Assembly (NCBI RefSeq): GCF_003018115.1
Contig: NZ_CP027457.1
DNA: 64,000 bases
DNA from: Escherichia coli
Lineage (GTDB): Bacteria > Pseudomonadota > Gammaproteobacteria > Enterobacterales > Enterobacteriaceae
Direction: 5' to 3' (one strand)
The notes under the pieces: model-generated
Seen by the model: only the letters and a program-made list of their open reading frames with translations
Databases searched by the model: none
Told to the model about the DNA's origin: nothing
Program-made: the position numbers and the translations under genes
Part shown: positions 12,139 to 37,501 of the stretch, in pieces
Numbering within the stretch: position 1 is the stretch's first letter
Layout: every line of letters begins with the position of its first letter

Positions 12139-13445
12139 TGGTGGATTTAATGGTGAATGAGCAACGATCAGGTACGGCGGGGAAAGATGTGCCTGCGGGG
12201 TATAAGCTGACTGAGGTGGGGGTGATTCCTGAGGATTGGGTAGTAATCTCTATTGATGACTGTACAACCAAAGTTGGTAGTGGAAAAACACCAACTGGTG
12301 GAGCATCTGTTTATATTGATAGCGGACGCCCTTTTGTCCGTAGCCAAAATGTTGATTGGGGAAGATTAGATCTCGCCGATGTCGTACATATTACAGATGA
12401 AACCCATAACACATTCTCTGGTTCTGAAATTCAGCAAGATGATGTTTTACTCAACATAACGGGAGCATCTATCGGCCGATGCGCTAAAGCTGATTTTAGG
12501 GTTATAGGTGGTAATGTTAACCAACATGTTTGCATCATCAGAACAGAGGCAAAAAAACTCTCCCCATCCTTACTGGTTGAATTAATCAATTCAAATTATG
12601 GACAAAACCAGATTGATAGTTATCAAGCCGGAGGAAACAGAGAAGGACTGAATTTTTCTCAAGTTAAAAATCTTAAGTTTGCTATTACACCAAACTCCCT
12701 TGAACAAACGGAAATTGTCAGAACATTAAATGATATTAATGCATTCACTCTCGCTCTGGAAAACTTAATTGCTAAAAAACAGGCCATAAAAGCCGCTGCT
12801 ATGCAACAACTACTCACCGGTAAAACCCGTTTGCCGCAGTTTGCGTTGCGCAAAGATGGATCTGCTAAGAGATATAAAAAGAGCAAGTTGGGGGAGACTC
12901 CAGAAGATTGGGCAGTTAATAATATTGGAGATTTATTCTCCATTACCGCAGGAGGAGATTTAAGACAGTCTGAATTCTCTAATATTCAATCTGAAAAACA
13001 TCTTTACCCTATTTATTCCAATGCAATTAGTCATTATGGTTTATATGGCTATTGCCAGAGTTATGATTATGTTGGTGACTATCTAACAATCACTGCGAGG
13101 GGAGGAATCGGCCATGCCGTGGCAAGAAAAGGAAGATTCTGTGCAATTGGACGATTATTAGTTCTTAGTCCAAAAGGAGATTCAAACGTAAAATTTTATG
13201 AAGGGTATATAAACCAATACTTATCATTTGCAAATGAGAGCACTGGAGTCCCTCAACTTACAGCTCCTCAAGTTGCAAAATATCCGGTTGTTTCCCCATG
13301 CATTGAAGAACAAACCGCCATCGCCACCATCCTCTCCGATATGGACAAGGAAATTCAGACCCTGCAACAACGTCTGGACAAAACCCGTCAGCTTAAACAG
13401 GGGATGATGCAGGAGCTGTTAACCGGGAAAACACGCTTAATATAA
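12138..13445 (+). CDS. hsdS: type I restriction-modification specificity subunit with two target-recognition domains
   Basis: Two AT-rich variable blocks separated and followed by conserved LTGKTRL repeats ([13 protein letters not shown] and [11 protein letters not shown]); ATG at 12138 overlaps the hsdM TGA (TGATG). Confidence 0.9.
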
Positions 13446-21909: not shown

Positions 21910-22284
21910 CTATTTCTTGATTCCTAAACGGAACATATCAGTTGGGAATAAAGGTTGTATTATCACTTCATCATTAAAAATGAATAATTTGGGCGATAAA
22001 GCTGTTACGTCATAGATATTTTCAGCGATTAATCTTAGATTTGACCTAAAAACTGGAATACTTGCATCATCTGCAAAGACAAACATGTCATCGTTTTTTA
22101 CAGAGTTTGCACACAATAGCTCATCAAAACTCTCATAATCAGAATGCCAGATCTCTGACCAAGTAACACTTCCTTTCGCGAGAGGGTACTTATTTAAAAT
22201 GCCCAGAGCCTCCTGCTGAGCCAGCCCCTCTACTATATTAAAATCAGCACTCAGTGCTTCCCGACACTCATCAAATAAAGTCAT
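21910..22284 (-). CDS. cdiI: orphan CDI immunity protein (pair 4)
   Basis: 124-aa ORF directly downstream of orphan cdiA-CT 22290-23657 with a 5-nt gap. Confidence 0.6.
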   Translation of the reverse strand: MTLFDECREALSADFNIVEGLAQQEALGILNKYPLAKGSVTWSEIWHSDYESFDELLCANSVKNDDMFVFADDASIPVFRSNLRLIAENIYDVTALSPKLFIFNDEVIIQPLFPTDMFRLGIKK

Positions 22285-22289
22285 TTGCT

Positions 22290-23657
22290 CTACCTGTTTA
22301 GCTGTTTCAATATTGTTTCAAAAGACTTTTCATTGCCTTCAAAAGGTATGACTTGCTTCACCGCTTTTCCAGGGCCTTTACCCTGCGAGTAATCCCATAT
22401 ATTGATGTGTGTGCCTTTTTCAGGATCATAATCAACACGCCAACCAACTTTTCCGTCGCTGGATTGCCGCCCTATGACTTTCCCATTACCAGCGCTGACT
22501 TCCAAACGTCCGATAACTGGCTTAGAGTCCGCTCCTAAATTACCTACAAGATCCAATGCCTTGTTTCGAGCAGTTTCCCAGTTTTTCTCTGGCTTGAGGA
22601 TTTGTTCAATTTTAGGCTGGGAATTCCCTTTAACCTTACTAATTCCCCCAAATGCTGACGCCGCAGCGCTCGCGACTATTCCCGCCTGAACTTCATCCAA
22701 ACCGTATTCTTCTTGGAGTGCTTCCGAGACTTTGTTGGTCGCGACAACCCCTTCAGCCTGCATTTGCTGCGCAAAAGTCGCCGTCAGATCGTAGACCATT
22801 TTGATCGGGATATCTTCACCCAGAGCACGATCTATTGCCTGCTTCACCGCCAGACTGTCAGTCAGTACATCACCGTATTTCTGCTGGCAGGTTGCCGGGC
22901 TGGCTGCACAGTCACTGATCAGTTGCTTTTGCTGTGCCGTACTCAACTCTTCGTACTTTTTGATAATACCGCCGCAGTCACCGCCTTTCGCCTGACAGGA
23001 CTTCATTTCAGCGGACCAAGCATCTATCTGCTTACTGCTCAGATAGTTATTCTCAACAGCATTCTTCCCGCTTTGTGCTCCCACTGCTGCTGATGCGGTG
23101 CTGTTTCCGGTAAGACCTCCGGCCAGCCCTGCTGACACGGTTGCCAGCGTACTTATCGTTTGCTTCTGCTCTTCACTGAGGTCTGACTGTTTCACGCCCG
23201 GATACAGCATGCCGGCAATCGCTCTGACTGCCAGCTCTCCCGTTGCTGCGCCTGCTGCACCGGCAGCAACATTATTACCCTGCATTGCCGCCACTGCGCC
23301 GCCCAAAATGGCGTGAGCAATGGCGTTTACTGCCGGGTCTTTTTCTGTTGATTTCAGCAGGTGCGCCAGTTCCGGAGCCGAAGTTCCGGCCAGAGCACCC
23401 GCTAAATTACCCCCCGCCAGCCCCTGAAGCGCGGCCTGGATACCCCGCTGAATTTCACTGCCGGTACCATACTTCGCCATTTCATCCCTGTAAGCCTGCG
23501 TGTCACGCAGTTTTGCCAGATATGCCTGCCGCTGCTCTTCCGTCGCATCCGCCGGAACAGGCCCATATTTATCCTGCGCAGCCTTCAACGCATTCAGTTC
23601 CCCCTGCGTCCGCGCAATATCAGCCACCTGACTGCCTATGTCACTGATAAGCCCCAC
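22290..23657 (-). CDS. cdiA-CT: orphan CdiA C-terminal fragment (pre-toxin region, VENN motif, toxin domain)
   Basis: Contains [11 protein letters not shown]; region before VENN is homologous to the pre-toxin region of the full cdiA in this window; no upstream secretion domain. Confidence 0.75.
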
Positions 23658-23742: not shown

Positions 23743-24006
23743 CTATTTGATTTTGCTTAAAATATTATTGACTATCGGTATTACAGAACTAACCAATTGC
23801 TCTTCCTCAACTGTATACAAAAGCAATTCGATCTCATTCTCCGCATTAAATAACATTGTATGGAGCCACTTTTCCTCAACAGCAACAATTTGGCTTTCCG
23901 CAGCATAAATTTCTGATTGAATACTTTGTACCGTTATTTTCCCTTCAAGAAAGTTTTTACAAGAGTGTTGTAACCTCTCGATCACCTCAGGATAAATCCA
24001 ACTCAT
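23743..24006 (-). CDS. putative immunity protein (pair 3)
   Basis: 87-aa acidic ORF overlapping the stop of the upstream toxin-like ORF by 4 nt. Confidence 0.45.
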   Translation of the reverse strand: MSWIYPEVIERLQHSCKNFLEGKITVQSIQSEIYAAESQIVAVEEKWLHTMLFNAENEIELLLYTVEEEQLVSSVIPIVNNILSKIK

Positions 24007-24719
24007 TGCCCACTCCTGCGAAGAATAGTAACAATAATATTACTGTTATTTTCAGTGACTACACCTACGTCACCACTCCAATAAGTCGTTCTAGTTACGC
24101 CATTAACGACACTATTTTGAGGAGTTCCTTCTTTGATAACACTTTCAACCATATTCGGCGTTATATTTCTCCCTGGGCCAACTGTGCCGGCTGGAGAACC
24201 AGATGGCTGCATTCTATCAACAGCATGTTGTGAATACAAACGATGACCTATTTGTGCATATTGTCGCCCATCTACTGTAACCTTTCGATAATTTTGCCAA
24301 GAGTCCCAAGGTAACTTTTCAGAACTATTAGGTACGTTTTCTGATGAGGTTTTCTCATTACGTTGCTCTATTGATTCATTATTCCTGGCGTTCTCCTCAT
24401 CCTGCGGCTCCCATCCCCCCGGTGTTCCAGCACCTGCGCCACCAAGCTCAGCTTTCTCCTTGTCCGTAGCGCTCGCTACGTCTTTGCCCAGATTCGGCTG
24501 TTTGTTTTCGTCTGTATTGTCGCCATTCAGCACATACCCCGGCCCCCGGGCACCATCGCGACTCGGATCACGTACAGCACACTGTTCCCGTGAGCCTTCA
24601 CAACCACCACCGGTATCCCAGCTATTATCATTCCCGGTATCCTTACTGGCATTACCTGTAGCACCAGCTATTGCTGCTGCCGTATTAGCTGCTGTTTCAG
24701 TGGCTATCACGTTCAGCAT
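24003..24719 (-). CDS. orphan polymorphic-toxin C-terminal domain protein (no VENN visible)
   Basis: 238-aa ORF in the orphan array, coupled to a small downstream ORF; toxin fold not assignable from sequence alone. Confidence 0.5.
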   Translation of the reverse strand: MLNVIATETAANTAAAIAGATGNASKDTGNDNSWDTGGGCEGSREQCAVRDPSRDGARGPGYVLNGDNTDENKQPNLGKDVASATDKEKAELGGAGAGTPGGWEPQDEENARNNESIEQRNEKTSSENVPNSSEKLPWDSWQNYRKVTVDGRQYAQIGHRLYSQHAVDRMQPSGSPAGTVGPGRNITPNMVESVIKEGTPQNSVVNGVTRTTYWSGDVGVVTENNSNIIVTILRRSGQ

Positions 24720-24736
24720 ATTGTTTTCAGCAACAA

Positions 24737-24955
24737 CTATTTACGATAGTATCTTCGCATTTGTAGATAGAGTTGTAACCAAATCCCAGCACCTCCCCAT
24801 AAGCCAACTACTGCGCCAATTATTCCGTATTTTACATACACCTCAGAAGGTATTGGTTCCCGAGCTATAAGCCAGATACTAACCACTATTCCAATAGAGC
24901 AAGTAGCTATAGATATAAGTAACAACTTAATAAGAAGTAGTAGATGTTTTTTCAT
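24737..24955 (-). CDS. cdiI: small membrane immunity protein (pair 2)
   Basis: 72 aa, two hydrophobic segments (LLLLIKLLLISIATCSIGIVVSIWLI and IIGAVVGLWGGAGIWLQLYL); overlaps the upstream toxin stop. Confidence 0.6.
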   Translation of the reverse strand: MKKHLLLLIKLLLISIATCSIGIVVSIWLIAREPIPSEVYVKYGIIGAVVGLWGGAGIWLQLYLQMRRYYRK

Positions 24956-25809
24956 TTTTTGTCTCCATCAACTTCTTTTTGCGTTGCGCTGCTTGCACCT
25001 TCTGATACGAATGAACCAACAAATCCACCAAATGTTCCTGGTATAGAGCTCATTTGGCCGCCTTGATACATACCGTATCCGATAGACTTTTCCGAATATT
25101 GCAGTGAATATTTACTGGCGTCCATTCCCAGTTGATTTTTGATGTATTGAGCTTCTAACTTATTAGTAATTGAAGCCCCAATGTTATAGCCAAGGCCTGT
25201 ACCAGCCATGCTACCCACTACTGATGCGGTACTGTCCTGGCCTTCAATCTGGCTGCTCATGTAAGCGCTACCGGCACCCAACAACTGATTAGCGTAATAT
25301 CCTTTCCCGGCTGTACCTACACCAGTCAAGCCTGACATCATGAAACTGAGATAATCGAACTTATCACCGATATTTCCCGTACCAATTTGTACCGCACCAT
25401 TAGCCCCATAGCTCAGCCCGGCACTGACAAATTTTTCAGTCAGCGTGGCTGATGATGTTAACAATGAACCCGCTCCGGCAACCGTACCCCAGTAATTTTC
25501 CGGTTCCCCGAAGAAAGCCAGAGCCTTATCACCTTTCGATGTGTTGTTGTTCAGATAGTTCAGGTCATAGCTGTTACTTTCAGTGACGTAGTTCTTCACG
25601 TCCTGGTTTTCCAGCGAACCATACAACCAGCCAGGCCGACCTGCCGCGCTGAGTCCGCCCTCAATATTCCATTTATCTTCCCCGGACAGAGCCGTCAGAG
25701 GATCTGTGGCCACATCAATGTGTAATTTCTGTCGGTGCTCTGCGCTTATTACAGCATATTTATTCTGAATATCGCCGCAGTCTCCACCCACTTTACGACA
25801 GGCCGTCAT
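24952..25809 (-). CDS. cdiA-CT: orphan CdiA-CT, glycine-rich membrane-active (ionophore-like) toxin domain
   Basis: In-frame VVVENNYLS is encoded at about 25836-25860, upstream of the first Met; body rich in G-x-x-x-G/A runs. Confidence 0.65.
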   Translation of the reverse strand: MTACRKVGGDCGDIQNKYAVISAEHRQKLHIDVATDPLTALSGEDKWNIEGGLSAAGRPGWLYGSLENQDVKNYVTESNSYDLNYLNNNTSKGDKALAFFGEPENYWGTVAGAGSLLTSSATLTEKFVSAGLSYGANGAVQIGTGNIGDKFDYLSFMMSGLTGVGTAGKGYYANQLLGAGSAYMSSQIEGQDSTASVVGSMAGTGLGYNIGASITNKLEAQYIKNQLGMDASKYSLQYSEKSIGYGMYQGGQMSSIPGTFGGFVGSFVSEGASSATQKEVDGDKK

Positions 25810-26173
25810 TTCTCTGTCAAAAGCATGCGCCTCGTCGTAGCTGAGGTAGTTATTCTCAACAACAACTCTTTCCGACGTAAGTTGCTGCGATGAACCCTAT
25901 TTTCTCCTTGCCTTTCCGTGAATTACAACCGTTTTCCCCTGCTGTACTTCCTGCCTGCCAACTTTTTGCCCCGACGCGCCTTTTTCGTCTGAACACGCTA
26001 CCGCCCCGGTGAAAAGTCCACCGAGTAAATAGCCTGCGGCTATTTAACATAACGCGCGGGAATTATGCGCAGTTCAGGAGGCCGAACCACGCATAATCAG
26101 CGTTATGTCTTGCGCCCTTCAGAAGCCTGCGATAGTGCAGGCTGACAGTCAGGAGACCCAGACGGTTAAGATA

Positions 26174-26467
26174 TTAACTGTCGGGCTCTCCTTTTTTATT
26201 ATTTTTATAATCAATCATCAAGTTATTCACCTCATTCCATAGTTGCTCATCGTTAAATTCGTATTCTTCACGATCATTATCTGGGTTGTACATATCAGCC
26301 ACACAGAAGACACTGGATAATAATTCACTTAGATTATCATTATCTTGCTTAAGTAGGTTACTATCACGCTCACCCTTCCACTTCGCCATATAAGTGTCGG
26401 TAAAATATTCAGCCGATATATTCTTAGCAAGAAAATCATCAATGTATTTTTTAAGAGACTGACTCAT
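26174..26467 (-). CDS. cdiI: orphan CDI immunity protein (pair 1)
   Basis: 97-aa acidic ORF whose start overlaps the stop of orphan toxin 26464-27237. Confidence 0.55.
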   Translation of the reverse strand: MSQSLKKYIDDFLAKNISAEYFTDTYMAKWKGERDSNLLKQDNDNLSELLSSVFCVADMYNPDNDREEYEFNDEQLWNEVNNLMIDYKNNKKGEPDS

Positions 26468-27237
26468 CTTAATGTCCCGTTATTTATGAAGTTTTCATAT
26501 TGCTTCGTTTGAGGATCAAGCTTCCACCCACTAACAAAATTACCAGATTTATCAATTACAACCACATTATTAGTTTGTGGATTGAAGAACACCTTTGATT
26601 CTGGAATTAATAGGTATGTCCCATGTTCATAAGTCGTCTTATTATCTAAATGTGATTTGATGGCAGCCTGATATTCTGCAATGGTATCACTATTTTTCTT
26701 AGTTGTTATTACGCCAAAATCAGAAGCATGTTTAAATTTCTTATCTAACTGTTTTGCGCTGAAAGCGACACTATCAGAGACGATTGTAGCTCCAGCATTT
26801 GGAATTTTCTTCCCTGGAAGTATAAGGCTAGCCAGTATTCCGCCAGTTGCTTCCAGCGCAGCCTGGTTCCCTCCATACGCTTGTTTCACATTCTCTGCTA
26901 CTGCTGACCAGGTTTCACTTTGCATCAGCGCTTTAACGCTGTCTGCCACTGCCTGATTTTTACCCGCCAAATCACTCAGTGCTTTATCACAATAGCTTTC
27001 GCCGGTTGCACATGAGGCGAGCGCCATTGCCGCATCACCCACATAATCGGCTGAGCCTATTGCCGTATCACCGGAGTCAGCGATGACATTAATAATGCCG
27101 TTGGCAATAGCCGATGAGGCTCCGTCTCCCAGCTTATCCCTGACCTGTGTTTTCCACCATTCAGCACTTTGTTTGACCGATTCCCTGGCCTTATCACCCG
27201 CCAGCGAGTTATTCTCAACAACAACTCTTTCCGACAT
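26464..27237 (-). CDS. cdiA-CT: orphan CdiA-CT-like toxin beginning MSERVVVENNSL
   Basis: VENN-type junction directly after its own ATG; 257 aa. Confidence 0.65.
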   Translation of the reverse strand: MSERVVVENNSLAGDKARESVKQSAEWWKTQVRDKLGDGASSAIANGIINVIADSGDTAIGSADYVGDAAMALASCATGESYCDKALSDLAGKNQAVADSVKALMQSETWSAVAENVKQAYGGNQAALEATGGILASLILPGKKIPNAGATIVSDSVAFSAKQLDKKFKHASDFGVITTKKNSDTIAEYQAAIKSHLDNKTTYEHGTYLLIPESKVFFNPQTNNVVVIDKSGNFVSGWKLDPQTKQYENFINNGTLR

Positions 27238-27438
27238 AAGTTGCTGCGATGAACCCGGATTCTCCCTGCATTTTCCGTTAGTTACAGCCGATTTTCCCTG
27301 TTGTACTTCCTGCCCGCCAACTTTTTGTGCTGTTAAGCGTTTCTGGCCCCGCAGACGCTACCGCCCCGCCGTGACGCGCCACCATCATATAAGCAAACTA
27401 CAGCACCACTTAGGATGGTGGTGTCTTGGATTTATATT

Positions 27439-27822
27439 TCAATTAAGAAGTTCCTTTGATACGTTACCAGTATCAAAAAACTCTTTTAAGATCTTTACAA
27501 TAAGTTCACAGTCTTTTGTAAGCTGAGATTCCGGCCAGTAATCACCAAGAATCACCATTTTTGTATCAGGTTTAGATGAGTCCCAGTACGTTCTTACTTG
27601 GTATTCATCTTCAAAAATTTCACCTAATGTTATCAAGTAATAACCATTCTCCGTTCTGATCTGAAGCATTTCAGCGCTATTATCGCCACTGTTCTGTATA
27701 TCAAGAGTAAGTGTTCCTTTTTTTCCCTGAATTAGTTTAAACTGATTTAATACCATGTCCCAATTTGAGATCTGTTTATTGCCACCTGTTTCGCCCAGTG
27801 TCCAACTCACTTTAAAATTCAT
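27439..27822 (-). CDS. cdiI: cognate CDI immunity protein for the CdiA C-terminal toxin
   Basis: 127-aa ORF starting 2 nt after the cdiA stop; canonical cdiA-cdiI arrangement. Confidence 0.7.
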   Translation of the reverse strand: MNFKVSWTLGETGGNKQISNWDMVLNQFKLIQGKKGTLTLDIQNSGDNSAEMLQIRTENGYYLITLGEIFEDEYQVRTYWDSSKPDTKMVILGDYWPESQLTKDCELIVKILKEFFDTGNVSKELLN

Positions 27823-27823
27823 T

Positions 27824-30800
27824 TTAATCCCTAACCTTGAGAGATTTCATGCCAGGCTGCCAGTAGAGGACTGATCCTGTAGCCTCTTCATAAATTGTTA
27901 AAGATTTTAGCCCCGCTTTATCAGCCATGGCTGCTATATCACCGCGGCAATAACCACATACAGGCTCTTTAGATACACTCATTGTCATCTCACGCCCTTG
28001 AGACATACCCTTTTCAAAAGCTTGCTGTATAACACCTACTTCAGCATGAGCTGTAGCCATATTGCCGTTAGGAAGAGGCTTGTTTTGCTTATCTATTTTA
28101 GCTTGGATTCGTCCATCAATGAGTGTTGGCTTATTCACATCTGCTAAGTTGGAAGGCCTTGCACCCTGATTAGTATCAGTAAACTTAGCTCCATCAACAT
28201 TACCTTTCGCTACGACCTTAAGATTAGCATCAACGATTTTACTTAATTGTTTTGCCGCAGCAGAACCCAAAATTGGTGTCACCGAAGCCGCAATGCTCTC
28301 CAGACCCTGCTTTGTTTCGGTGTAGCTTTCTGCGGTCTGACGATCCACCCCTTTGGTGACCATGAAATAGTTAATCATGGCGTCTTTCACCTGTTGCTGA
28401 TTCTGTGCATCAACACTGGTGATATCGAGGAGATTGACCATCTGACCATACGCATCAGCGTATTGCTGGCTGTATTTCGAGTTATAAGGGCCATCTTCGT
28501 ACCCTTCTTTCGACGCAATAACTTTCAGTCTTGCGCTGGCACACGCTGAACTACCCGCATTACCATTACCGCAGGCAGCAATAACCTCCTTATCACTGGC
28601 AATATCTTTCTCACGCAGAGCATTATATTTCTGTTGCGCCTTTTCGCGCTCTGCCGGATCTTTACTATTTTTAAGCGTCTGTTTTGCTATCTCAAGCTCT
28701 GTCTTTTCAGACACGCTAAGATAGTTATTCTCAACCGCGTTCCTGCCTGCCTGTGCCCCCGTACCGGCAGACGCCGTACTGTTGCCTGCAAGCCCGCCCG
28801 CAATACCTGAGGCAATGGTGGCCAACATGCTGATTTGCTGACGTTCCTGTTCACTCAGGTTATCAGTACGACCACCATAGTAGTTATCAATGATATACCG
28901 GGCTGCAAGTTCACCGCTGAATGCCCCTGCAGCACCGGAAGCCGCATTGTTTCCGCCCAGTTGTGCGGCAAGCGCTCCCCAGACTGCGTGAGCCATCAGG
29001 TTTGCTTCCCGGTTATCGCCGGTGGCCTGTTTTATAAGCTGTGCCACTGCCGGATTCAGACCGCCAGCCAGTATCTGCCCCGGATTCCCTGCATTCAGTC
29101 CGCCCAGCACACCCGTGATGGCCTGTACCACCATCTGCGGCGTACTGCCCGTACCGTAGCCTTTCATGACCTCTCTGTATTCCGGGGTCTCCCGCAACTG
29201 TGCATCGCTCATGCCAGGATGCTCTTTCCTGGCTGCTTTCATCGCTTCAGTTTCGCCATACGTCATGACGATGTTACTCATCTGACCGCTAATCTGGCTG
29301 ATAACCTGCGCTTCCTGCAGACGCTTCTGCTCTTTCTCCCTGTCAAATATCGGTGCAATGCTGCCGTTGGCGTTTTCCGGGTCCCGGCTGAGCCCGGCAA
29401 TATCCTGCTTCTGACTCTCATTATCACGGATAATGAGATTTCCGCCGCTGATGGCGGATGACGTGGTACCTTCAGCATGTCCACTGCTGCCGGACATACC
29501 GGTAAGTGCGTTCGCCGCACCGGCTATTGCATTTGAGGCCACCATCTGGCTGGCTGACATCCCTGAGCCACCCGATAAACTGATTCCGGTATGGCTGGCT
29601 TTATAGTCTGCCTGGTTATGGATATCCGACCAGCCCAGCGTATTGGTATTGAGGCTGTTTTTGTCATCCGTTGCCGTGGACGCAATTACCGCACCATTGA
29701 GCTGAGTGTGATTCCCAACAGTGACATCAAACCCGTCTTTTCCGGCGTAGATACCACTCTGTTCCCGGACAGAATCGTAATTGCTTTTAATTTTGTCCTG
29801 ACTGATGCTGGCATAGCCGCTGCCGGACATTGAGCCAAACGTGAAGCTTCCACCTGCAGCCACGCTGTTCTGTCTGCTGTCGTAACGGTCACTGTCCTGA
29901 AGGCTCGAAATGGTCAGGTTGTTGCCGACATCTGCTGTGACTTTCTCGCCACTGACCTGAGCCCCCGACAGGGTGGTATCACGTCCGCTTGTGAGGGAGA
30001 CATTTTTACCCGCATCCAGCGTGGTTTCGGTCCAGGTCGTGCCGTTGCCTTTCTCCCTGCCCTCTGAACCATTGATACCGGCGAAGATACTGAGGCCTCC
30101 GCCATTGGTTCCACCACCAAAGCTGACGCCCACGCCGCCACCTTTGCTGCTGTTCTTCCCGGTTGTCTGTCGGGTGTCAGCGGCGGCAGCCAGCAGAATA
30201 TCGTTCTGTGCATTCAGGCTGGTGTCATTGCCGGACTTAATCTGGCTCCCGGTAATGAGAATATCGCCGCTGTTGTTATGGTCCTTATTTTTCCCCGTGG
30301 CAGTGACAGAGACATTGTTACCGGCGCTGAGGGTTGAGCCGGAGACGATATCGTGCTGATATTTCGTCTCAGACTTCGACTGCTGATGGTTGAGCGAAAT
30401 GCTCACGCCGATACCATTATTCGGGTCAGCACTCTGTTGCTGCAGTCCGTGGTTAACACCGGCCTGTACACCAGACAGAACCGCCTGTGTTCCTTTCAGT
30501 GCCGCCAGACGGCTGTCGCTGGTTTCTTTCGCCTCCCGGGCCATGGTGGCAGCATTATTGATGGCACTGCCCACTGTGCCGGAAAGGGCAACCGTCAGCC
30601 CGCTTTTCTTCTGCTCAAATTTTTCGTCCACAGTACGACGGTCATGCCCCGGGTCAACCACCACACTGTCACCGGTAATGCTGATATCCCGGTTCGCAAT
30701 CACATCCGAACCGCTGATATGAGCCTGTTTGCCCGCGGTAATACTGACATTACCAGCAGTGGAGCCGATGGTGCTGGCACTCTGACTCTGCGTTGTCCCG

Positions 30801-33800
30801 GCCTCGCGGCGGTCGTGCGTTGTCTTACTGCTGCCAGTGGTGAAACCAATACCGCCGGTACCCGTCAGACCGGATTTCTTCGTTTCCTTAAAGCGCCAGG
30901 ACGTATCTGTACTGGTGGCAGCAAGAACATCAACATGGTTATCCGCCGCCAGTGACACATCCCAGTCAGCCACCACATCCGAACCCTGTACCGTCAGGTT
31001 ATTACCGGCGTTAACGGTCACGCGGTTTCCCGACAGCAGGGAGCCCTTCTCACGGGTGACGCTGTCTTCCGTGATGGTCCGGGTGGTCTGATGGCTGAGG
31101 AGACGGTTACGGGTTTCCCCTGATTCACTGTAGTGATAATCACTTTCCGTGGCAGTACCCAGTACGATGTCATGACCGGCATTCACACGGATATCGCCCT
31201 TTGCCGTTACAGCGGTCGCAACTGAGGTGATATCCCGTCCGGCAGTAACCGTAATGTCACCGCCACTGGTCATGTCTGTTCCCTGCTGCCGGACCGAATC
31301 ATGAACCGTCTTCATGCTGAAAGTGCTGTCGTGGTCACCTGCGCCTGTGGACTCCGCAGCCATGTTCACATCCCGTCCGGCGCGGATAGCCATACTGTTT
31401 TCAGCCGTAATACCGGCAGCCTGGCTGTTCACATCACGACCGGCGGAAAGCATCAGACTGTTCCCGGCAGTGACCGTGGGGGCCACGGCATGAGTTTCAT
31501 ACCACCCGGACCCGCCATAGCGACGACGTTCTCCGGCCTGTATCGCGTTCATGTTCAGGTCATTACCGGCGGACAGTAACACGCTGTCACCGGCAGAAAC
31601 GGCGGCACCGGTGATACTGATATCCCCGGCTGCGCCCATAAACAGTGAGTCCGTTGCCCTGACAGCAGCCAGCGGACCGGTATCCGTTCCGCTGAAATGG
31701 TTATATCCGTTGTTCATCGCCCACTGTTCTGTCCGGGTGAGGTTACTGATGTTTCCGGTGGCGCTTTCCAGGGATACGGTTTTACCGCTGATGACTGAGC
31801 TGATATTGCCGATATCCCCGATGGCCTTCAGGTTCAGTGCACCACCGGCGTTTATCAGTCCGGCATTCAGGTTGTCGATACTACCTGTGCTGTCGAGCAG
31901 GAGGTCATTCTGTGCGTTGATGCTGCCGCCGCTGTTGGTGATATTGCCACCCGCAAGCTGCACGTTGTTCCCGCTGATAACGCTGCCATTATGAAGGGTG
32001 ATATCTTCCGGAGACAGATACAGTTTCGGAACCATGACTGTCTGTCCGTTGATGGTGACTGACTCCCACCACAGCAGGCTTCTGGTCAGTTGTGCAACCT
32101 GCCCGGCGGTCAGCGACACTCCAAAGGTCAGTCCGAGCGCTTTCTGTTGCGCTGCCGCGCTGTCCATCAGGTATTTCATCTGCGCCAGGTCAGAGCCTGT
32201 GCCGTTAATATAACGTGAGCCCGTCTGGTTCAGTATGACGTTACTGACATACCGGGTATCAAAAGCCGCATCCCCCAGAAAGCGGTAATCTTTTTCCGGT
32301 TTCAGGCCAAGACGGTCAAGAATGTACGACGAGCCCAGAAACTGTTTTTCATCGGTATATGCCGGGTCTGTTTCTCGTGGTGCCTGTCCGGGTTGCATCC
32401 TGAGCAGGTCATACAGTCCGGCAAACAGACTGCTGTCCACCTTTCCGAGACCATCCAGTTTCGGGTTCACCGTAATCAGATACGGACTGTCCGGGTCCGT
32501 GGACGGGACAAAATAACCATTGTTACCGGATGGCAGGGGATAGTTGCTTACACTTGCCCCGGACAGCGACAGCGCACCCGGGATATCCTTCAGCGTATCC
32601 GGCAGCGCGTCATTCCATACAGGGCCGGTTATCCCGGTACCGCTTTCATTCAGCAGGGCTTCACCGCTCACCCCCTGACTGACCGTCGGTGGTGTCAGGG
32701 AGTTCAGCGAAGGCACCGTTATCGTGTTACCTGCACCACCTGCCCGGGGCATGACAGTGGTATTACCGGTGTCAGTGGCAAAGCTGGCAGACACATCACC
32801 GGCAGCGCTGATAACCGCACGGTACTGACCTGCCGGAGAGGTGCCACTGGCTTCTGTCGCATCCGGCGAGACCTGGCGATAGACCTTATACCATGGCTCA
32901 GTAAACCACGCTTTGGGGAGTGAGCCGGAGGCAAGCCGCCAGACCGTTTCCTTTCCGGTGGTCCCCTCCTGCCAGCCCTGATTGTTCAGTGTGTCGCCAC
33001 TCAGGGTCATACTGCCACCGGCGAGAAGAAACGATGCCTCATTATCCAGTCGTCCTGCACGGATATGCATATCAGCGCCGCCGGATATCCGGGCAGCATG
33101 ACCGGAGGCACTGACTGTCACCGTTTCCGTATCGCCCGTACGGATACGGTATTCATCAGGTACCGTGGCACCCTCCCCCCAGTACACGGCCAGATATTCC
33201 ACACCATCATGCCGGACAACACCCCACCAACGGTTATTTTCCGGAACCGGTGAAATCACCCCGCGACTGCTTCCAGGAATGACCTCATGGCTGGCCGAAA
33301 TGGCATCCCAGGAATTCAGCAGATGCGCCGTATTCATGGTGATATCGCCACGTGTGGTTTCAATATTACCGGAACGGTTAATGATTTCGCTGTTTGCCGT
33401 ACCGCTGCTGTCCTTCTGTACCCACAGACTGTTGCCGGCCAGGATATCACCATGCTGGTTATGCAGACGGTCTGTAAACAGCTTCAGGTTATTCCCCGCA
33501 TAAATCAGCGCACTGTTCAGCAGGGTACCGGCCACATTCATTGTCAGACTGCCTGCCGTGCCGGTAAAACCACTGATGGTGATATCACTCCGGCTGTTCA
33601 GACTCACATCGCCACCGGCCTGAAGTGAACCCGGTGCGTTAAGGAAAAGACGCTGTGCGCTGAAAACACTGTTGCCTTTACCGGCAGTCAGCGTTCCATT
33701 GTTGGTGAATGCCTCTCCGGCACCGAGCACCATGGCATCACCCAGCATGACACCGCCGTTGGTGATGGCATTTTGCGACGTGACGGAAAGGGTTTTCCCT

Positions 33801-36800
33801 GCGGCCAGGGTACCGTAATTCGTGAGGGCAGCAATCAGTTTCAGTGTGACATCACCGGTGGCCACCACCTGGCCCTGACCACTGAAGTCCTGAGCGTCAA
33901 GCAGCAGGTTGCCTGCACTGTACAGCCGCCCTGTACCATTTTGCAGCAGTGAACTGCCCTTGACGCCAAGCCCGGAGGTTCCCAGCAGGGTACCGCTGTT
34001 GCTGAATGTGTGGTAATTCACCAGCAGATCCGCACCCTGAAGCGTACCGATATTATTCAGCGTGGTTCCTTTAACGTCGGCACTGCCGGTGGCAAGTACG
34101 CGTCCGCCGTTGACAGTATTCACCACATCCAGCAGCAGGGTGGCAGCCTGTACCAGTCCGCTGCCGGTGTTCGCCAGCACCTGCGCCGTCAGCGTGAGGT
34201 TACTGCCGGAGAAGATTTTGCCGTCGTTCTGCAGACGGTCAGTGGCGTTCAGGGAAACCCCGCCACCACCCTGTATCGTGCCCTGGTTACTCAGGGTCGC
34301 AGTACTGACATTCAGTGCATTCCGGCTCATCAGAACACCACCGGAACGGTTGTTCACGCCACCGGAGGCGGCCAGCGTCAGCGTTTCGCCCTGCAGATGC
34401 CCGCCGTTTGTGAGTTGTCCTGCCGTGATGGTGGTGGCATTTCCCTGTAATTGCCCGTCGTTTGTGACACTGTCTGCCTTCAGCGTCAGCACACCTGCAC
34501 TGAGCAGTTTTCCGCTCGCGTGATTGTTCAGCGTCTGATTCACCGTGAGCGTGAGAGCATCCACACCGGTGATGTCACCCGCACTGGTCAGTGAGTTCGC
34601 CTTCAGAGTCAGATTTTTTGCAATCCATTGTCCGCTGTTGCTTAAATTCAGTGCACTGAGCGCCATTTCACCGTTCGAGGTGACTTTGCTGCCTGCTGTG
34701 CTGACAAGCTCACCCGTCAGACGTGCAGTCAGGCTGTCAGCCGCCTGGATCGCCCCGCTGTTTGCCAGACTGTCTGCGGTGATCAGCACCCGTTTGCCCT
34801 GCCAGTGTCCGGAACTGGTAATACTGCCTGCGGTGATTGTCAGATCGCCGCTGGTCAGCAATGAACCTCCGTTATTCATCAGCGCAGGTTGAGGGGATAC
34901 CATACGAGCAGCAAGCGTCAGCGCGGCAATCCCGGTGAGCGAGCCACTGTTGGTGACACTGTTCTGGCGAATCGTGACATGGTCACCCTGGACAGTGCCG
35001 CTGTTATCCAGTGAGTTTCCATCAAGGGAGAGCGTGCCGGCCGAAAGCAGACTGCCCCGGTTGTCCGTGGTGGCTGCTTTCAGCGTGGTGTCACCCTGGC
35101 TCATGATATCGCCGGTACTGGTCAACTGACCGGTTGCCGAAGCAGTAAGGTTACCGGTTGCCAGTACGGAACCACTGTTCGCCCATCTGTCCGCCTGCAC
35201 GGTGAGATTCTGTCCCTGCGTGGTCCCTGCGGTATTCAGTGTTTTACCCCGGAGGGAGAGGTCGCCCGCCGTCAGCCAGCGTCCGTTACGGCCCTGTGAG
35301 AGGGTGTCGCCTGCAAGCGCCAGTGCACCTGCGCCCTGCAACAGGCCATCGCCATCCAGCGTGGTCGCCCTGACGTTCAGCGTGTCAGCGGTGATTTTTC
35401 CCGGATTGCTGAGGGAGGCAGTGTTTAACGTTAAACCGTTATCACCGGTGATAAGCCCGCTGTTGCGGATGTCCGGTATATCCAGCGTCAGGTCTGCAGC
35501 ACTGTACAGCGTGCCGTTCTGCTGATTATCAAGCCTCTGTGTGTTAACGGTGAGTGAGGCCTCCCCCTGCAACAGACCGCTGTTGGTCAGGGTCTGTGAC
35601 TGTGTATTCAGGGCGGAAGCAACAAGTACGCCGCTGCTGGTCAGTTCCGGCGCAATGAGGCTGAGCGACGGGGCACTGCTTTTCCCGCTGTGGGTGAGCT
35701 TTTCACTGGCGTTCACCACCATGGTCTGTTGTGCTGCCTGCGTACCTGCAAGACGTGCATCTCTGGCGTTGATGCTGAGATTTTTGCCGCTCTGAAGTTG
35801 TGCGCCCGCTGCGGTACTCAGTTTGTCTGCCTGAACCCGGAGGGTGTCACCGGCACTGGTTTCCCCGTCCAGCGCCACGGTTGTCACATTCAGCGTCATC
35901 GCAGCATCGCTGTGGGTGACTGATTTTTTACCGGAGCTCAGCGTCTGCGCACTGACTGTCAGCCCTTTGCCGCCGGACAGCACACCGTTCTGTGTCACAT
36001 CCTGCGCCTTCAGCACCAGTACATCATCGCTCACCAGCGAACCTGTACTGGTCAGTTTCCCACTGGCTGTGATATCCACTTTGCCCTTCGCGCCAGTGCG
36101 GCCGCTCTGGGTAAAGTCGCGGGTATTCACGGTCAGGCGACCGCCACTGAGCAGGGAGCCACTGTTGCTGAGCGTTGTACTGCCGAGCGTCAGGGAAGCC
36201 CCCTGAACAGCACCACTGTTATTCAGCGTGCCGGCATCGAGTCCCGCATGACCTTTCGCCAGCAATATTCCGTCCTGTGTCAGCGTGGTGGCGCTGGCCG
36301 TGAGATTCTGCCCGGCGGTTATCTGTCCCTGTGTTGTCAACGTGTCACTGGCGACAGTCACAATATTGCGGGCCGCGTTAATCTGGCTGGCGGTATCCTG
36401 TGTGATGTTTTTCGCGGCAAGCGTTACATCCCGGCCGGCAGTCAGTTTTTCATTCTGTTGAGTGATTCTGCCGCCGGCGGTCAGGCTGAGGTCCTTGTCG
36501 CTGTTAAGCGTTCCATTGCTGAGAACGATATCGCTCCGGCTGCTGACGCTCAGGTTACCTCCCGCTTTATGGTCGCCGGTTAAGGTGACGCCCTGACCTT
36601 TTGCAGTGACGGCCCCCGTGGCGAGACTGTTGTTGACAGTCAGTCTGCCGCTGGCATCCAGGGTGATATCGCCATCGCGGGCATAAAGGTTACCAAGATT
36701 AACCCCGACACCACTTTCAGTGGAGGTCAGATGAATACGCCTGGCGTACATTCCACCGAGCGCGCCGGTATCAACGGCAACTTTCGGCACATCACCTTCG

Positions 36801-37501
36801 CCCTTCAGTGCACTGACACGACCATCTGCAGTTATCCGGTTAGCGCCTGCAGTGACAGTTAAATCCTTCGCATGAAGCGCGGCATTCACTTCCGTTGCAC
36901 GGGCAATAATGGATACGGCATCGCTCCGGGTGCCGTCCAGGCCCGCGCCATTGATGGTGATACTGCCTTCAGTCACCTCCAGCGCCTGCAGGCTGCCGTC
37001 GGCATTCATCACAGGTCTGCCCGTGGTGAGCGTCGCGTGCGGCGTGTTGATAAAACCACAGCCGTCACAGGTGATACCATACGGGTTGGCAACAATCACA
37101 TTCGCCGCTTTGCCGGCCACTTCCGTATAGCCCTGCAGCAGTGAACGGTTACCGCCGGTCACTTCGTTGATGATACCCTTCGCTTCCCCGCCCGCTTTCA
37201 GGTTCGGGTTATTCTGTATCAGTCCACCAAGCTGCGTCGGATTAAGCTTACCGGTGGCATTATTGAGAATCAGCCCTTCCTTCCCGACGTTGTAATCCGT
37301 AAACCGGTTATGCGAAATCCCGGCCCCGTTCGGCGTGGCAATGTTCACGACCGGCACACCATTTGCCGCTTTATCCATTCCGGCCCCGTTTTGTGGGGTG
37401 ATGACGGCCCCCACAGCCGGTAACAACGGCTGCCCGGCGATAATCGTACTGATAAGGTAACTCAGCAGGCGGTAAGTGAAGCGAACGGGAGGCTGATGCA
37501 T
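27824..37501 (-). CDS. cdiA: contact-dependent inhibition exoprotein CdiA (3225 aa) with a deaminase-like C-terminal toxin
   Basis: N-terminal two-partner-secretion domain ([21 protein letters not shown]), long repeat region, pre-toxin VENN ([11 protein letters not shown]), C-terminal HAEVGV...(~25 aa)...PVCGYC. Confidence 0.95.

What the first reader, a model, noticed from the sequence alone, without database searches (positions are those of the whole stretch)
24737..25860. Glycine-rich orphan toxin paired with a small two-helix membrane immunity protein
The toxin-like ORF at 24952-25809 is dominated by G-x-x-x-G/A runs (LTGVGTAGKGYY, GAGSAYMS, GSMAGTGLGYNIGAS), typical of membrane-inserting ionophore-type domains. 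Its downstream partner is a 72-aa protein with two predicted transmembrane helices. The pairing suggests a pore-forming CDI toxin with a membrane-embedded immunity protein, unlike the nuclease or deaminase-type modules beside it.
Basis: inference. Interest (0 to 1): 0.4.

Follow-up and report, generated by a model that had tools for sequence, protein, structure and literature searches.

The report
Known CDI ionophore toxin, orphan copy

Summary
The module is the second orphan cdiA-CT/cdiI cassette downstream of a 3225-aa CdiA in an E. coli cdiBAI locus. The toxin really starts at a VENN motif (25860-25849), 17 codons before the ATG at 25809. It has no start codon or secretion domain of its own.

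The 302-aa CT is 99.7% identical to the C-terminus of a full-length CdiA (EAC1475517.1) and 95.4% identical to another (QKD20815.1). Halvorsen et al. 2024 (PLoS Genet, PMC11630599) list both as group 4 alpha-helical CDI ionophores. That group uses YciB as its inner-membrane receptor, and its immunity proteins are two-helix proteins of 72-100 aa.

- Residues 12-162 match the N-terminal part of the EC869 o11 toxin (PDB 4G6U, E=7.5e-14), the kind of entry domain that the paper links to YciB.
- The C-terminal half models as long helices and carries a G-x3-G-x3-G-x3-G zipper.
- The 72-aa CdiI is identical in every E. coli copy examined, and its 5' end matches the paper's VREC0495 cdiI primer 22/22.

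Verdict: interpretation supported, already known, low interest.

Side observation: a conserved ~150-nt spacer precedes this and other orphan cassettes. Here it contains an exact ops (RfaH-recruiting) 12-mer.

The parts
25849..25866 (-). VVVENN junction. The VENN motif (25860-25849) marks the start of the orphan CdiA-CT. An in-frame stop lies at 25899-25897, and there is no start codon between it and VENN.
   Evidence: Sequence read and translated. The homology breakpoint with other E. coli genomes falls at 25860.
25486..25860 (-). Entry (receptor-hijacking) domain of the CT, residues 1 to about 125 counted from VENN. It is all-helical and has a Cys21/Cys28 pair. It resembles the entry domain that Halvorsen et al. 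link to YciB.
   Evidence: phmmer against PDB: 4G6U_A (EC869 CdiA-CT o11) E=7.5e-14, query 12-162. Weak Pfam CdiA_helical hit. AF2 pLDDT is about 90 over residues 10-110. Many library hits match only residues 1 to about 140.
24955..25485 (-). Alpha-helical ionophore domain, residues about 126-302. The long helices of the model are 140-160, 170-183, 188-206, 210-244 and 273-299.
   Evidence: AF2 model. 32% identity, E=1e-31, to a B088-type group 4 CT, covering both domains. Library hits that match only residues from about 125 to 300.
25177..25215 (-). Glycine zipper G216-x3-G220-x3-G224-x3-G228 (GSMAGTGLGYNIG). A GxxxGxxxG zipper is the one sequence element reported as shared by all CDI alpha-helical ionophores.
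   Evidence: for the motif. for the paper's statement on the Gly168/172/176 zipper of CT-EC93.
24952..24954 (-). Toxin stop codon TGA. It overlaps the cdiI ATG (ATGA).
24737..24955 (-). cdiI: a 72-aa two-helix inner-membrane immunity protein. Its Shine-Dalgarno sequence GGAGA lies at 24966-24962.
   Evidence: It is identical in all eight E. coli copies compared except PapRG-04-4, which has L29F. Its first 22 nt equal the VREC0495 cdiI primer CH6268.
24720..24737 (-). VVAENN start of the next orphan module (o3). It begins on the last base of the cdiI stop codon and marks the right-hand end of the cassette.
   Evidence: Sequence. Homology with O157-type copies ends near 24714.
25861..26010 (-). 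Conserved non-coding inter-module spacer that ends in ...SERVVVENN. It contains GGCGGTAGCGTG (26005-25994), an exact ops 12-mer, in the sense orientation.
   Evidence: A paralogous copy lies at 27207-27370. Weak JUMPstart hit. Exact ops match. The spacer family occurs in other E. coli and other Enterobacterales.

Best explanation
The region is an orphan cdiA-CT/cdiI cassette. It encodes a group 4 member of the alpha-helical CDI ionophore family (toxin type 10 of Halvorsen et al. 2024) and its cognate immunity protein.

How the toxin works when it sits at the end of a full-length CdiA, as it does in strains A1.S1.65, MEI4BO-21, CFS3292 and QA-1986 630:
1. The CT is cleaved after VENN in the target-cell periplasm.
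2. Its N-terminal ~125-residue helical entry domain engages the inner-membrane protein YciB.
3. The C-terminal helical bundle, with its glycine zipper, inserts into the cytoplasmic membrane and dissipates the membrane potential.
4. The 72-aa CdiI is a helical hairpin with both termini in the cytoplasm. It binds the ionophore helices within the membrane and blocks them.

In this window the toxin fragment has no start codon, signal peptide or CdiA stalk, so it is probably not made or exported. The cdiI gene has its own Shine-Dalgarno sequence and ATG, and it probably protects the cell against neighbours that deploy this toxin. The cassette also serves as a reserve toxin that recombination at VENN could load onto cdiA.

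Shown here: the anatomy, near-identity to listed family members, entry-domain homology, the helical models, and the conserved pairing with a 2-TM ORF.

Taken from the paper: YciB dependence and CdiI protection, tested on the group 4 toxins from VREC0495 and E. ictaluri, and depolarisation, reported for a representative of each group.

Inferred: expression of the orphan cdiI, and silence of the toxin fragment.
For: - Locus context: a 3225-aa CdiA at 27824-37501 is followed by four VENN/immunity cassettes.
- The VENN-to-stop CT is 100% identical to the 2014C-4135 orphan. It is 99.7% identical to the CdiA C-termini of A1.S1.65 and MEI4BO-21, and 95.4% identical to those of CFS3292 and QA-1986.
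- Exact look-up equates MEI4BO-21 CdiA with EAC1475517.1 and CFS3292 CdiA with QKD20815.1.
- Both accessions are in the group 4 block of S1 Appendix, beside JAN 013B and VREC0495 and with the same BLAST statistics.
- Group 4 toxins from VREC0495 and E. ictaluri were shown to depend on YciB and to be neutralised by cognate CdiI.
- Representatives of every group depolarise target cells.
- Primer CH6268 for VREC0495 cdiI matches the first 22 nt of the 72-aa ORF.
- Entry-domain homology to 4G6U_A, E=7.5e-14.
- 32% identity over 240 aa, E=1e-31, to a B088-type group 4 CT (WP_073535323.1), which is also followed by an unannotated 81-aa 2-TM ORF.
- All-helical AF2 models of the toxin and of CdiI.
- A 2-TM ORF directly follows toxin homologues of 61-63% identity in Pantoea and Brenneria.
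- The orphan concept and VENN-to-VENN cassette boundaries come from Poole et al. 2011.
Against: - No sequence of VREC0495 or JAN 013B itself was available. The link rests on accession identity of sister entries, matching lengths and BLAST statistics, and a 22-nt primer.
- The ionophore-domain model is only moderately confident (pLDDT 55-80, below 50 around residues 250-269), and Foldseek found no solved homologue.
- Nothing here shows that the orphan cdiI is transcribed or that the toxin fragment is silent. PGAP annotates a 285-aa CDS from the internal ATG.
- The window toxin differs from the VREC0495-type toxin at 14 positions, mostly in the entry domain. Receptor use is therefore inferred, not tested.
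Confidence: 0.9

Rival explanations
1. The cassette is an internally expressed toxin-antitoxin-like addiction module. Translation from the ATG at 25809 would make an N-terminally shortened cytosolic ionophore that the 72-aa protein neutralises, and this would stabilise the orphan array.
For: - An intact 285-aa ORF from an ATG is annotated as a CDS by PGAP.
- CDI ionophores can be toxic from the cytosol.
- The 4-nt ATGA overlap suggests translational coupling with cdiI.
Against: - There is no good Shine-Dalgarno sequence before 25809.
- Starting at Met18 removes part of entry-domain helix 1 (helix 8-23).
- The paper reports that even one extra or wrongly processed N-terminal residue can abolish activity.
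- Homologues in other strains are simply the ends of full-length CdiA.
Confidence: 0.05
2. The toxin fragment is a decaying pseudogene remnant and only the immunity gene matters. The cassette would then be purely an immunity gene kept for protection.
For: - There is no start codon or secretion domain.
- About 35 of the 40 complete genomes that carry the cassette have it as an orphan.
- Poole et al. propose immunity collection as one role of orphans.
- M-series plasmid copies are truncated by a transposase.
Against: - The 302-codon frame is intact.
- It differs by one residue from copies on full-length CdiA.
- It shows no frameshifts in any chromosomal copy compared, which argues for recent exchange or continued selection as a usable toxin.
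Confidence: 0.3
3. The toxin is a soluble enzyme (a nuclease or deaminase like its neighbours), and the small hydrophobic ORF is incidental.
For: Neighbouring cassettes encode colicin D-like, deaminase and DUF4258-type toxins.
Against: - There is no enzymatic Pfam, NCBIfam or PDB match.
- The model is all-helical and glycine-rich.
- The toxin is near-identical to proteins classed as ionophores.
- The 2-TM partner is conserved across genera.
Confidence: 0.02

Closest known systems
Group 4 alpha-helical CDI ionophore toxins with their CdiI proteins (E. coli VREC0495, JAN 013B, B088; E. ictaluri 93-146), Halvorsen et al. 2024, PLoS Genet, PMC11630599
   Same: - VENN-delimited CT made of an entry domain and a helical ionophore domain, with a glycine zipper.
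- A 72-aa two-helix CdiI directly downstream.
- 99.7% and 95.4% identity to CdiA proteins listed in the group 4 block.
- The start of cdiI equals the VREC0495 cdiI primer.
   Different: Here the module is an orphan cassette, not the end of a full-length CdiA. There are 14 substitutions relative to the CFS3292/VREC0495-type toxin, mostly in the entry domain.
CdiA-CT/CdiI of E. coli EC93 (founding CDI ionophore, AcrB-dependent, group 1)
   Same: According to the paper, the same toxin clade (type 10), the same glycine-zipper helical ionophore domain, and a small two-helix membrane immunity protein.
   Different: The entry domain and receptor differ (AcrB versus YciB). The paper's BLAST gives only about 28% identity over half of the CT. 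I could not align the two directly because I had no EC93 sequence.
CdiA-CT o11 of E. coli EC869 / TA271 (PDB 4G6U), a YciB-dependent DNase toxin
   Same: A homologous N-terminal entry domain (E=7.5e-14 over about 150 residues), including the two cysteines near the start.
   Different: Its C-terminal domain is a DNase with a soluble immunity protein. Here the C-terminal domain is a membrane ionophore with a membrane immunity protein.
Orphan cdiA-CT/cdiI modules (Poole et al. 2011, PLoS Genet, PMC3150448)
   Same: It lies downstream of cdiBAI, starts at VENN, and lacks translation initiation and secretion signals. Homology runs from one VENN to the next VENN.
   Different: None of substance. This cassette is preceded by a conserved spacer rather than by retained cdiA pre-toxin sequence.
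Pore-forming colicins (A, E1, Ia, K, N) with their membrane immunity proteins
   Same: A depolarising inter-bacterial toxin that is neutralised within the membrane by an integral-membrane immunity protein.
   Different: There is no colicin pore-domain match. According to the paper, the colicin domains have ten helices, insert without a receptor and form voltage-gated cation channels.

Membership tests
CDI alpha-helical ionophore toxins (type 10), group 4 | The CT is demarcated by the VENN motif of CdiA or of an orphan CdiA fragment. | tested here: met
   VVVENN is encoded at 25866-25849. The same CT follows ...GRNAVENN in the full-length CdiA of A1.S1.65.
CDI alpha-helical ionophore toxins (type 10), group 4 | Sequence relationship to recognised family members. 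| tested here: met
   99.7% identity to the CT of EAC1475517.1 and 95.4% to that of QKD20815.1, both listed as group 4. 32% identity, E=1e-31, to the B088-type WP_073535323.1.
CDI alpha-helical ionophore toxins (type 10), group 4 | Two alpha-helical domains, the C-terminal one a five-helix bundle able to span the membrane. | tested here: met
   The AF2 model is all-helical. The long C-terminal helices are 140-160, 170-183, 188-206, 210-244 and 273-299. Confidence is moderate (pLDDT 55-80). Bundle packing was not inspected.
CDI alpha-helical ionophore toxins (type 10), group 4 | A conserved glycine zipper G-x3-G-x3-G in the ionophore domain. | tested here: met
   G216/G220/G224/G228. The motif is described.
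CDI alpha-helical ionophore toxins (type 10), group 4 | [quoted passage not shown] | tested here: met
   4G6U_A E=7.5e-14, residues 12-162. Cys21 and Cys28 lie at the junction of helices 8-23 and 29-52. Disulfide geometry was not measured.
CDI alpha-helical ionophore toxins (type 10), group 4 | A cognate CdiI of 72-100 residues that is very hydrophobic, forms a two-helix hairpin and is encoded immediately downstream. | tested here: met
   A 72-aa ORF with a 4-nt overlap. Two hydrophobic segments and basic termini. AF2 helices 2-30 and 37-71.
CDI alpha-helical ionophore toxins (type 10), group 4 | Depolarises target cells, requires YciB, and is neutralised only by the cognate CdiI. | not testable with these tools
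   Reported for CT-VREC0495 and CT-Eict in PMC11630599. Not measured for this exact variant.
Orphan cdiA-CT/cdiI module | Lies downstream of cdiBAI, encodes VENN, and lacks translation-initiation and secretion signals. | tested here: met
   It is the second cassette after CdiA (27824-37501). A stop lies 13 codons before the VENN valine, and there is no ATG, GTG or TTG between that stop and VENN.
Orphan cdiA-CT/cdiI module | Homology with other genomes runs from one VENN to the next VENN. | tested here: met
   Matches to other genomes end at 25860. They end at about 24714 for the O157-type copies and run on to the query edge (24600) for A1.S1.65-type genomes. The next cassette starts with VVAENN at 24737-24720.
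Pore-forming colicin domain | Match to the colicin pore-forming domain (ten-helix fold). | tested here: not met
   No such Pfam hit at E<=0.1, no PDB sequence hit and no Foldseek hit.
Ntox25 beta-barrel CDI ionophores | Ntox25 (PF15530) domain, beta-barrel fold. | tested here: not met
   No Pfam hit. The model is all-helical.

The most novel reading that the evidence does not exclude
The conserved ~150-nt spacer immediately upstream of this orphan carries a functional ops element (GGGGCGGTAGCGTG at 26007-25994, sense strand). RfaH loaded there would suppress Rho-dependent polarity across the untranslated toxin fragment. Transcription could then reach the 72-aa cdiI and the cassettes beyond it. 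That would be an unrecognised way of expressing orphan immunity genes in CDI arrays.
Probability: 0.12. Interest if true: 0.5.

Novelty: already known. Interest (0 to 1): 0.1.

Why it matters
As a discovery it matters little. The toxin family, its receptor class and its immunity proteins were described in 2024, and this cassette is near-identical to listed members.

Its practical value is for annotation:
- The 72-aa cdiI is not called by PGAP in the RefSeq records examined.
- The toxin is labelled "hypothetical protein" from an internal ATG.

An orphan copy predicts that this strain is immune to neighbours armed with VREC0495/JAN 013B-type CdiA.

The spacer with its ops-like motif is the only element nearby that might lead somewhere new.

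Tried and rejected
- Pfam gave only a sub-threshold CdiA_helical hit, and NCBIfam gave nothing for either protein.
- Foldseek of the full toxin model against PDB found no match better than E=3.8. It did not recover 4G6U, which the sequence search had found.
- The paper's supplements hold accession lists but no sequences. Peptide strings and RefSeq WP numbers were not found in them. The link was made instead through exact-sequence look-up of full-length CdiA proteins.
- Look-up of the 72-aa protein did not display SQY39222.1 or TGF52224.1, because only a few accessions are shown per member.
- tblastn of the ionophore domain against plasmids did not reach the EC93 plasmid. Homology to EC93 therefore rests on the paper's PSI-BLAST.
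- M15 as a group 6 relative was considered and rejected. The M15 plasmid CdiA carries this group 4-type CT truncated by a transposase, and the group 6 M15 primers do not match this sequence.
- RNA structure in the spacer: the RNAalifold consensus is -4.8 kcal/mol with no covariation.
- A coding role for the spacer was rejected, because frames are broken by stops and indels between copies.
- The promoter scan found nothing above shuffles.
- The mir-329 Rfam hit is chance.

Full report
**What is in the sequence**

They lie downstream of a 3225-aa ORF (27824-37501) with filamentous-haemagglutinin repeats and a PT-VENN motif. Its C-terminus is a Deam_C/MafB19-like deaminase, and a DUF6911 protein follows it.

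Four cassettes follow on the same strand:
- a colicin D-like toxin (26464-27237) with a colicin-type immunity protein (26174-26467);
- the finding;
- a fragment that PGAP calls DUF4258 (24003-24719) with an 87-aa ORF;
- a 455-aa PT-VENN fragment (22290-23657) with a CdiI_ImmP protein (21910-22284).

This is a cdiBAI locus with an orphan array. It is essentially identical to that of E. coli 2014C-4135.

**The true extent of the toxin**

Reading the minus strand, the frame of the 285-aa ORF stays open upstream to a stop at 25899-25897. It encodes ...SERVVVENNYLSYDEAHAFDREM, so VENN sits at 25860-25849 and the first ATG (25809) is residue 18 of the CT. Matches to other E. coli genomes stop exactly at 25860.

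The toxin stop overlaps the ATG of the 72-aa ORF (ATGA), which has a GGAGA Shine-Dalgarno sequence 6 nt upstream. The last base of the 72-aa ORF's stop codon is the first base of VVAENN, the start of the next cassette. Poole et al. 2011 described exactly this VENN-to-VENN organisation, together with the absence of translation-initiation and secretion signals.

**Is the composition remarkable?**

Glycine makes up 14.6% of the CT and 18.3% of its last 142 residues. The number of GxxxG pairs (10) is only marginally above composition-preserving shuffles (6.2 +/- 2.1; 7% of shuffles reach it). "Dominated by GxxxG runs" is therefore mainly a composition effect. One four-glycine zipper, G216-x3-G220-x3-G224-x3-G228, stands out.

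**What it is**

The CT and the 72-aa gene occur whole in 40 of 5426 complete E. coli genomes.
- In five genomes (A1.S1.65, MEI4BO-21, PapRG-04-4, CFS3292, QA-1986 630) the CT is the C-terminus of a full-length CdiA.
- In the rest it is an orphan. In O157:H7 strains it is the first orphan after cdiAI.
- The window CT is 99.7% identical (V24A) to the A1.S1.65 and MEI4BO-21 versions, and 95.4% identical to the CFS3292, QA-1986 and O157 versions. Most substitutions fall in the N-terminal third.
- The 72-aa protein is identical in all of them, apart from L29F in PapRG-04-4.

Halvorsen et al. 2024 (PMC11630599) describe a family of alpha-helical CDI ionophores, divided into six groups by entry domain.
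- The only shared motif is a glycine zipper.
- The CdiI proteins have 72-100 residues and form two-helix hairpins.
- Group 4 uses YciB. This was shown with CT-VREC0495 and CT-Eict, and cognate CdiI protects.

Exact-sequence look-up shows that MEI4BO-21 CdiA is EAC1475517.1 and CFS3292 CdiA is QKD20815.1. Both accessions appear in the group 4 block of the paper's S1 Appendix. The first sits among the JAN 013B-type entries and the second next to VREC0495, with identical BLAST statistics. The paper's primer for VREC0495 cdiI (...ATGAAAAAACATCTACTACTTC) equals the first 22 nt of the window's 72-aa ORF.

**Independent tests of the family features**

- A sequence search of PDB finds EC869 CdiA-CT o11 (4G6U_A), E=7.5e-14, aligning CT residues 12-162 with the N-terminal part of that DNase toxin. 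The paper assigns YciB dependence to the equivalent toxin from strain TA271.
- A full HMMER scan of 1.84 billion representatives finds only 92 relatives. Some match only residues 1 to about 140, and others only residues from about 125 to 300. This fits two exchangeable domains.
- AlphaFold2 on a 36-sequence alignment gives an all-helical protein. The N-domain is confident (pLDDT about 90). Five long C-terminal helices follow at pLDDT 55-80. Foldseek finds no solved counterpart.
- A B088-type group 4 CT from an E. coli M8 plasmid (WP_073535323.1, listed as group 4) aligns at 32% identity over 240 residues, E=1e-31. An unannotated 81-aa two-TM ORF with the same 4-nt overlap follows it.
- Toxin homologues of 61-63% identity in Pantoea and Brenneria are likewise followed at once by 72-aa and 77-aa two-TM ORFs.
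- The window CdiI has hydrophobic segments 5-30 and 43-65 and basic ends (MKKH......RRYYRK). Its AlphaFold2 model has helices 2-30 and 37-71, pLDDT 79.

**Mechanism**

By near-identity to characterised relatives, the CT, when carried by a full-length CdiA, is released after VENN in the target periplasm. It uses its entry domain to exploit YciB and inserts its helical bundle to dissipate the membrane potential. CdiI blocks it within the membrane.

In this window the fragment cannot be exported and has no start codon at VENN. The paper shows that imprecise N-termini can abolish ionophore activity, so translation from Met18 would probably give an inactive product. The cdiI gene has its own ribosome-binding site. 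The likeliest present role is immunity against neighbours that deploy this toxin, plus a reserve toxin. Expression was not tested here.

**Novelty**

The finding is already known.

**Side observation**

The 313 nt between the preceding immunity gene and this VENN contain a ~150-nt element. It is repeated at 85% identity upstream of the colicin D-like orphan.
- Diverged copies (about 70-98% identity) lie upstream of other orphan CTs in 65 complete E. coli genomes.
- Copies also occur in Citrobacter, Trabulsiella, Pluralibacter, Pseudocitrobacter, Yokenella and other genera. They always end in ERVVVENN and are followed by unrelated CTs.
- The window copy contains GGCGGTAGCGTG (26005-25994). This is an exact match to the ops consensus GGCGGTAGnnTG, and from memory it is also the form found in the waaQ JUMPstart. 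It lies in the sense orientation. There is a weak JUMPstart hit of 20.3 bits against a gathering score of 35.
- The family consensus at that block is GGGCGGTAGCGT(G/C)T. Several copies are degenerate there, so the block is no better conserved than the rest of the spacer.
- No RNA structure or promoter was found.
- No paper in the held library links RfaH to CDI.

RfaH-mediated suppression of polarity across untranslated toxin fragments would be a logical way to express orphan cdiI genes. At present this is a lead only.

Noticed in passing
window 25861-26010 and 27207-27370 (minus strand); also L014, L015, L016, L004:9640-9800, L020-L024, L027-L029: A conserved ~150-nt non-coding spacer precedes orphan CTs of unrelated types and always ends in ...ERVVVENN. 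It occurs in 65 complete E. coli genomes and in several other Enterobacterales genera. It may be the unit of cassette exchange. I know of no description of it.
   Followed up: partly
window 25994-26005 (minus); paralogue 27354-27365: An exact ops (RfaH-recruiting) 12-mer, GGCGGTAGCGTG, lies in the sense orientation inside that spacer, with a weak JUMPstart hit (20.3 bits, below threshold). The paralogue has GGCGGTAGCGTC. The motif is only partly conserved across the spacer family. No ops match was found upstream of cdiB.
   Followed up: partly
window 24737-24955; L001, L003, L004, L006, L007, L018: The 72-aa cdiI, and the 81-aa one after the B088-type toxin, are not annotated by PGAP in any RefSeq record examined. 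The toxin is called "hypothetical protein" from an internal ATG. Halvorsen's S1 Table also marks many of these cdiI genes as unannotated.
   Followed up: yes
window 26464-27237: The colicin D-like orphan has an in-frame ATG five codons before VENN (MSERVVVENN...), created by the same spacer (ATG here, ACG in the copy before the ionophore). Unlike most orphans it could be translated in the cytoplasm.
   Followed up: no
window 27824-28840 and 27439-27822: The main CdiA carries a Deam_C/MafB19-like cytidine deaminase CT (E=1.5e-51) behind a DUF6862 entry-type region. A DUF6911 protein follows and is presumably its CdiI. This corresponds to toxin type 17, which the paper lists as uncharacterised.
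   Followed up: partly
L008 (E. coli M15 plasmid A, NZ_CP010214.1 134604-135416) and sister plasmids of M6, M9, M19: A plasmid-borne full-length cdiA carries this same group 4-type CT. The CT diverges after about residue 250 and ends at 270 residues, with no cdiI, where a transposase fragment abuts it. The toxin end is apparently disrupted.
   Followed up: partly
L004 (O157:H7 FRIK944) 12239-13239 compared with window 24737-25860: O157:H7 and other STEC carry the cassette as their first orphan. The toxin differs at 14 residues, 11 of them in the entry domain, while CdiI is 100% identical. The two toxin variants should therefore share one immunity group.
   Followed up: partly
window 24003-24737: The next cassette starts with VVAENN, a variant of VENN, on the last base of the cdiI stop codon. 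Its 238-aa product has no Pfam hit here, although PGAP labels it DUF4258.
   Followed up: no
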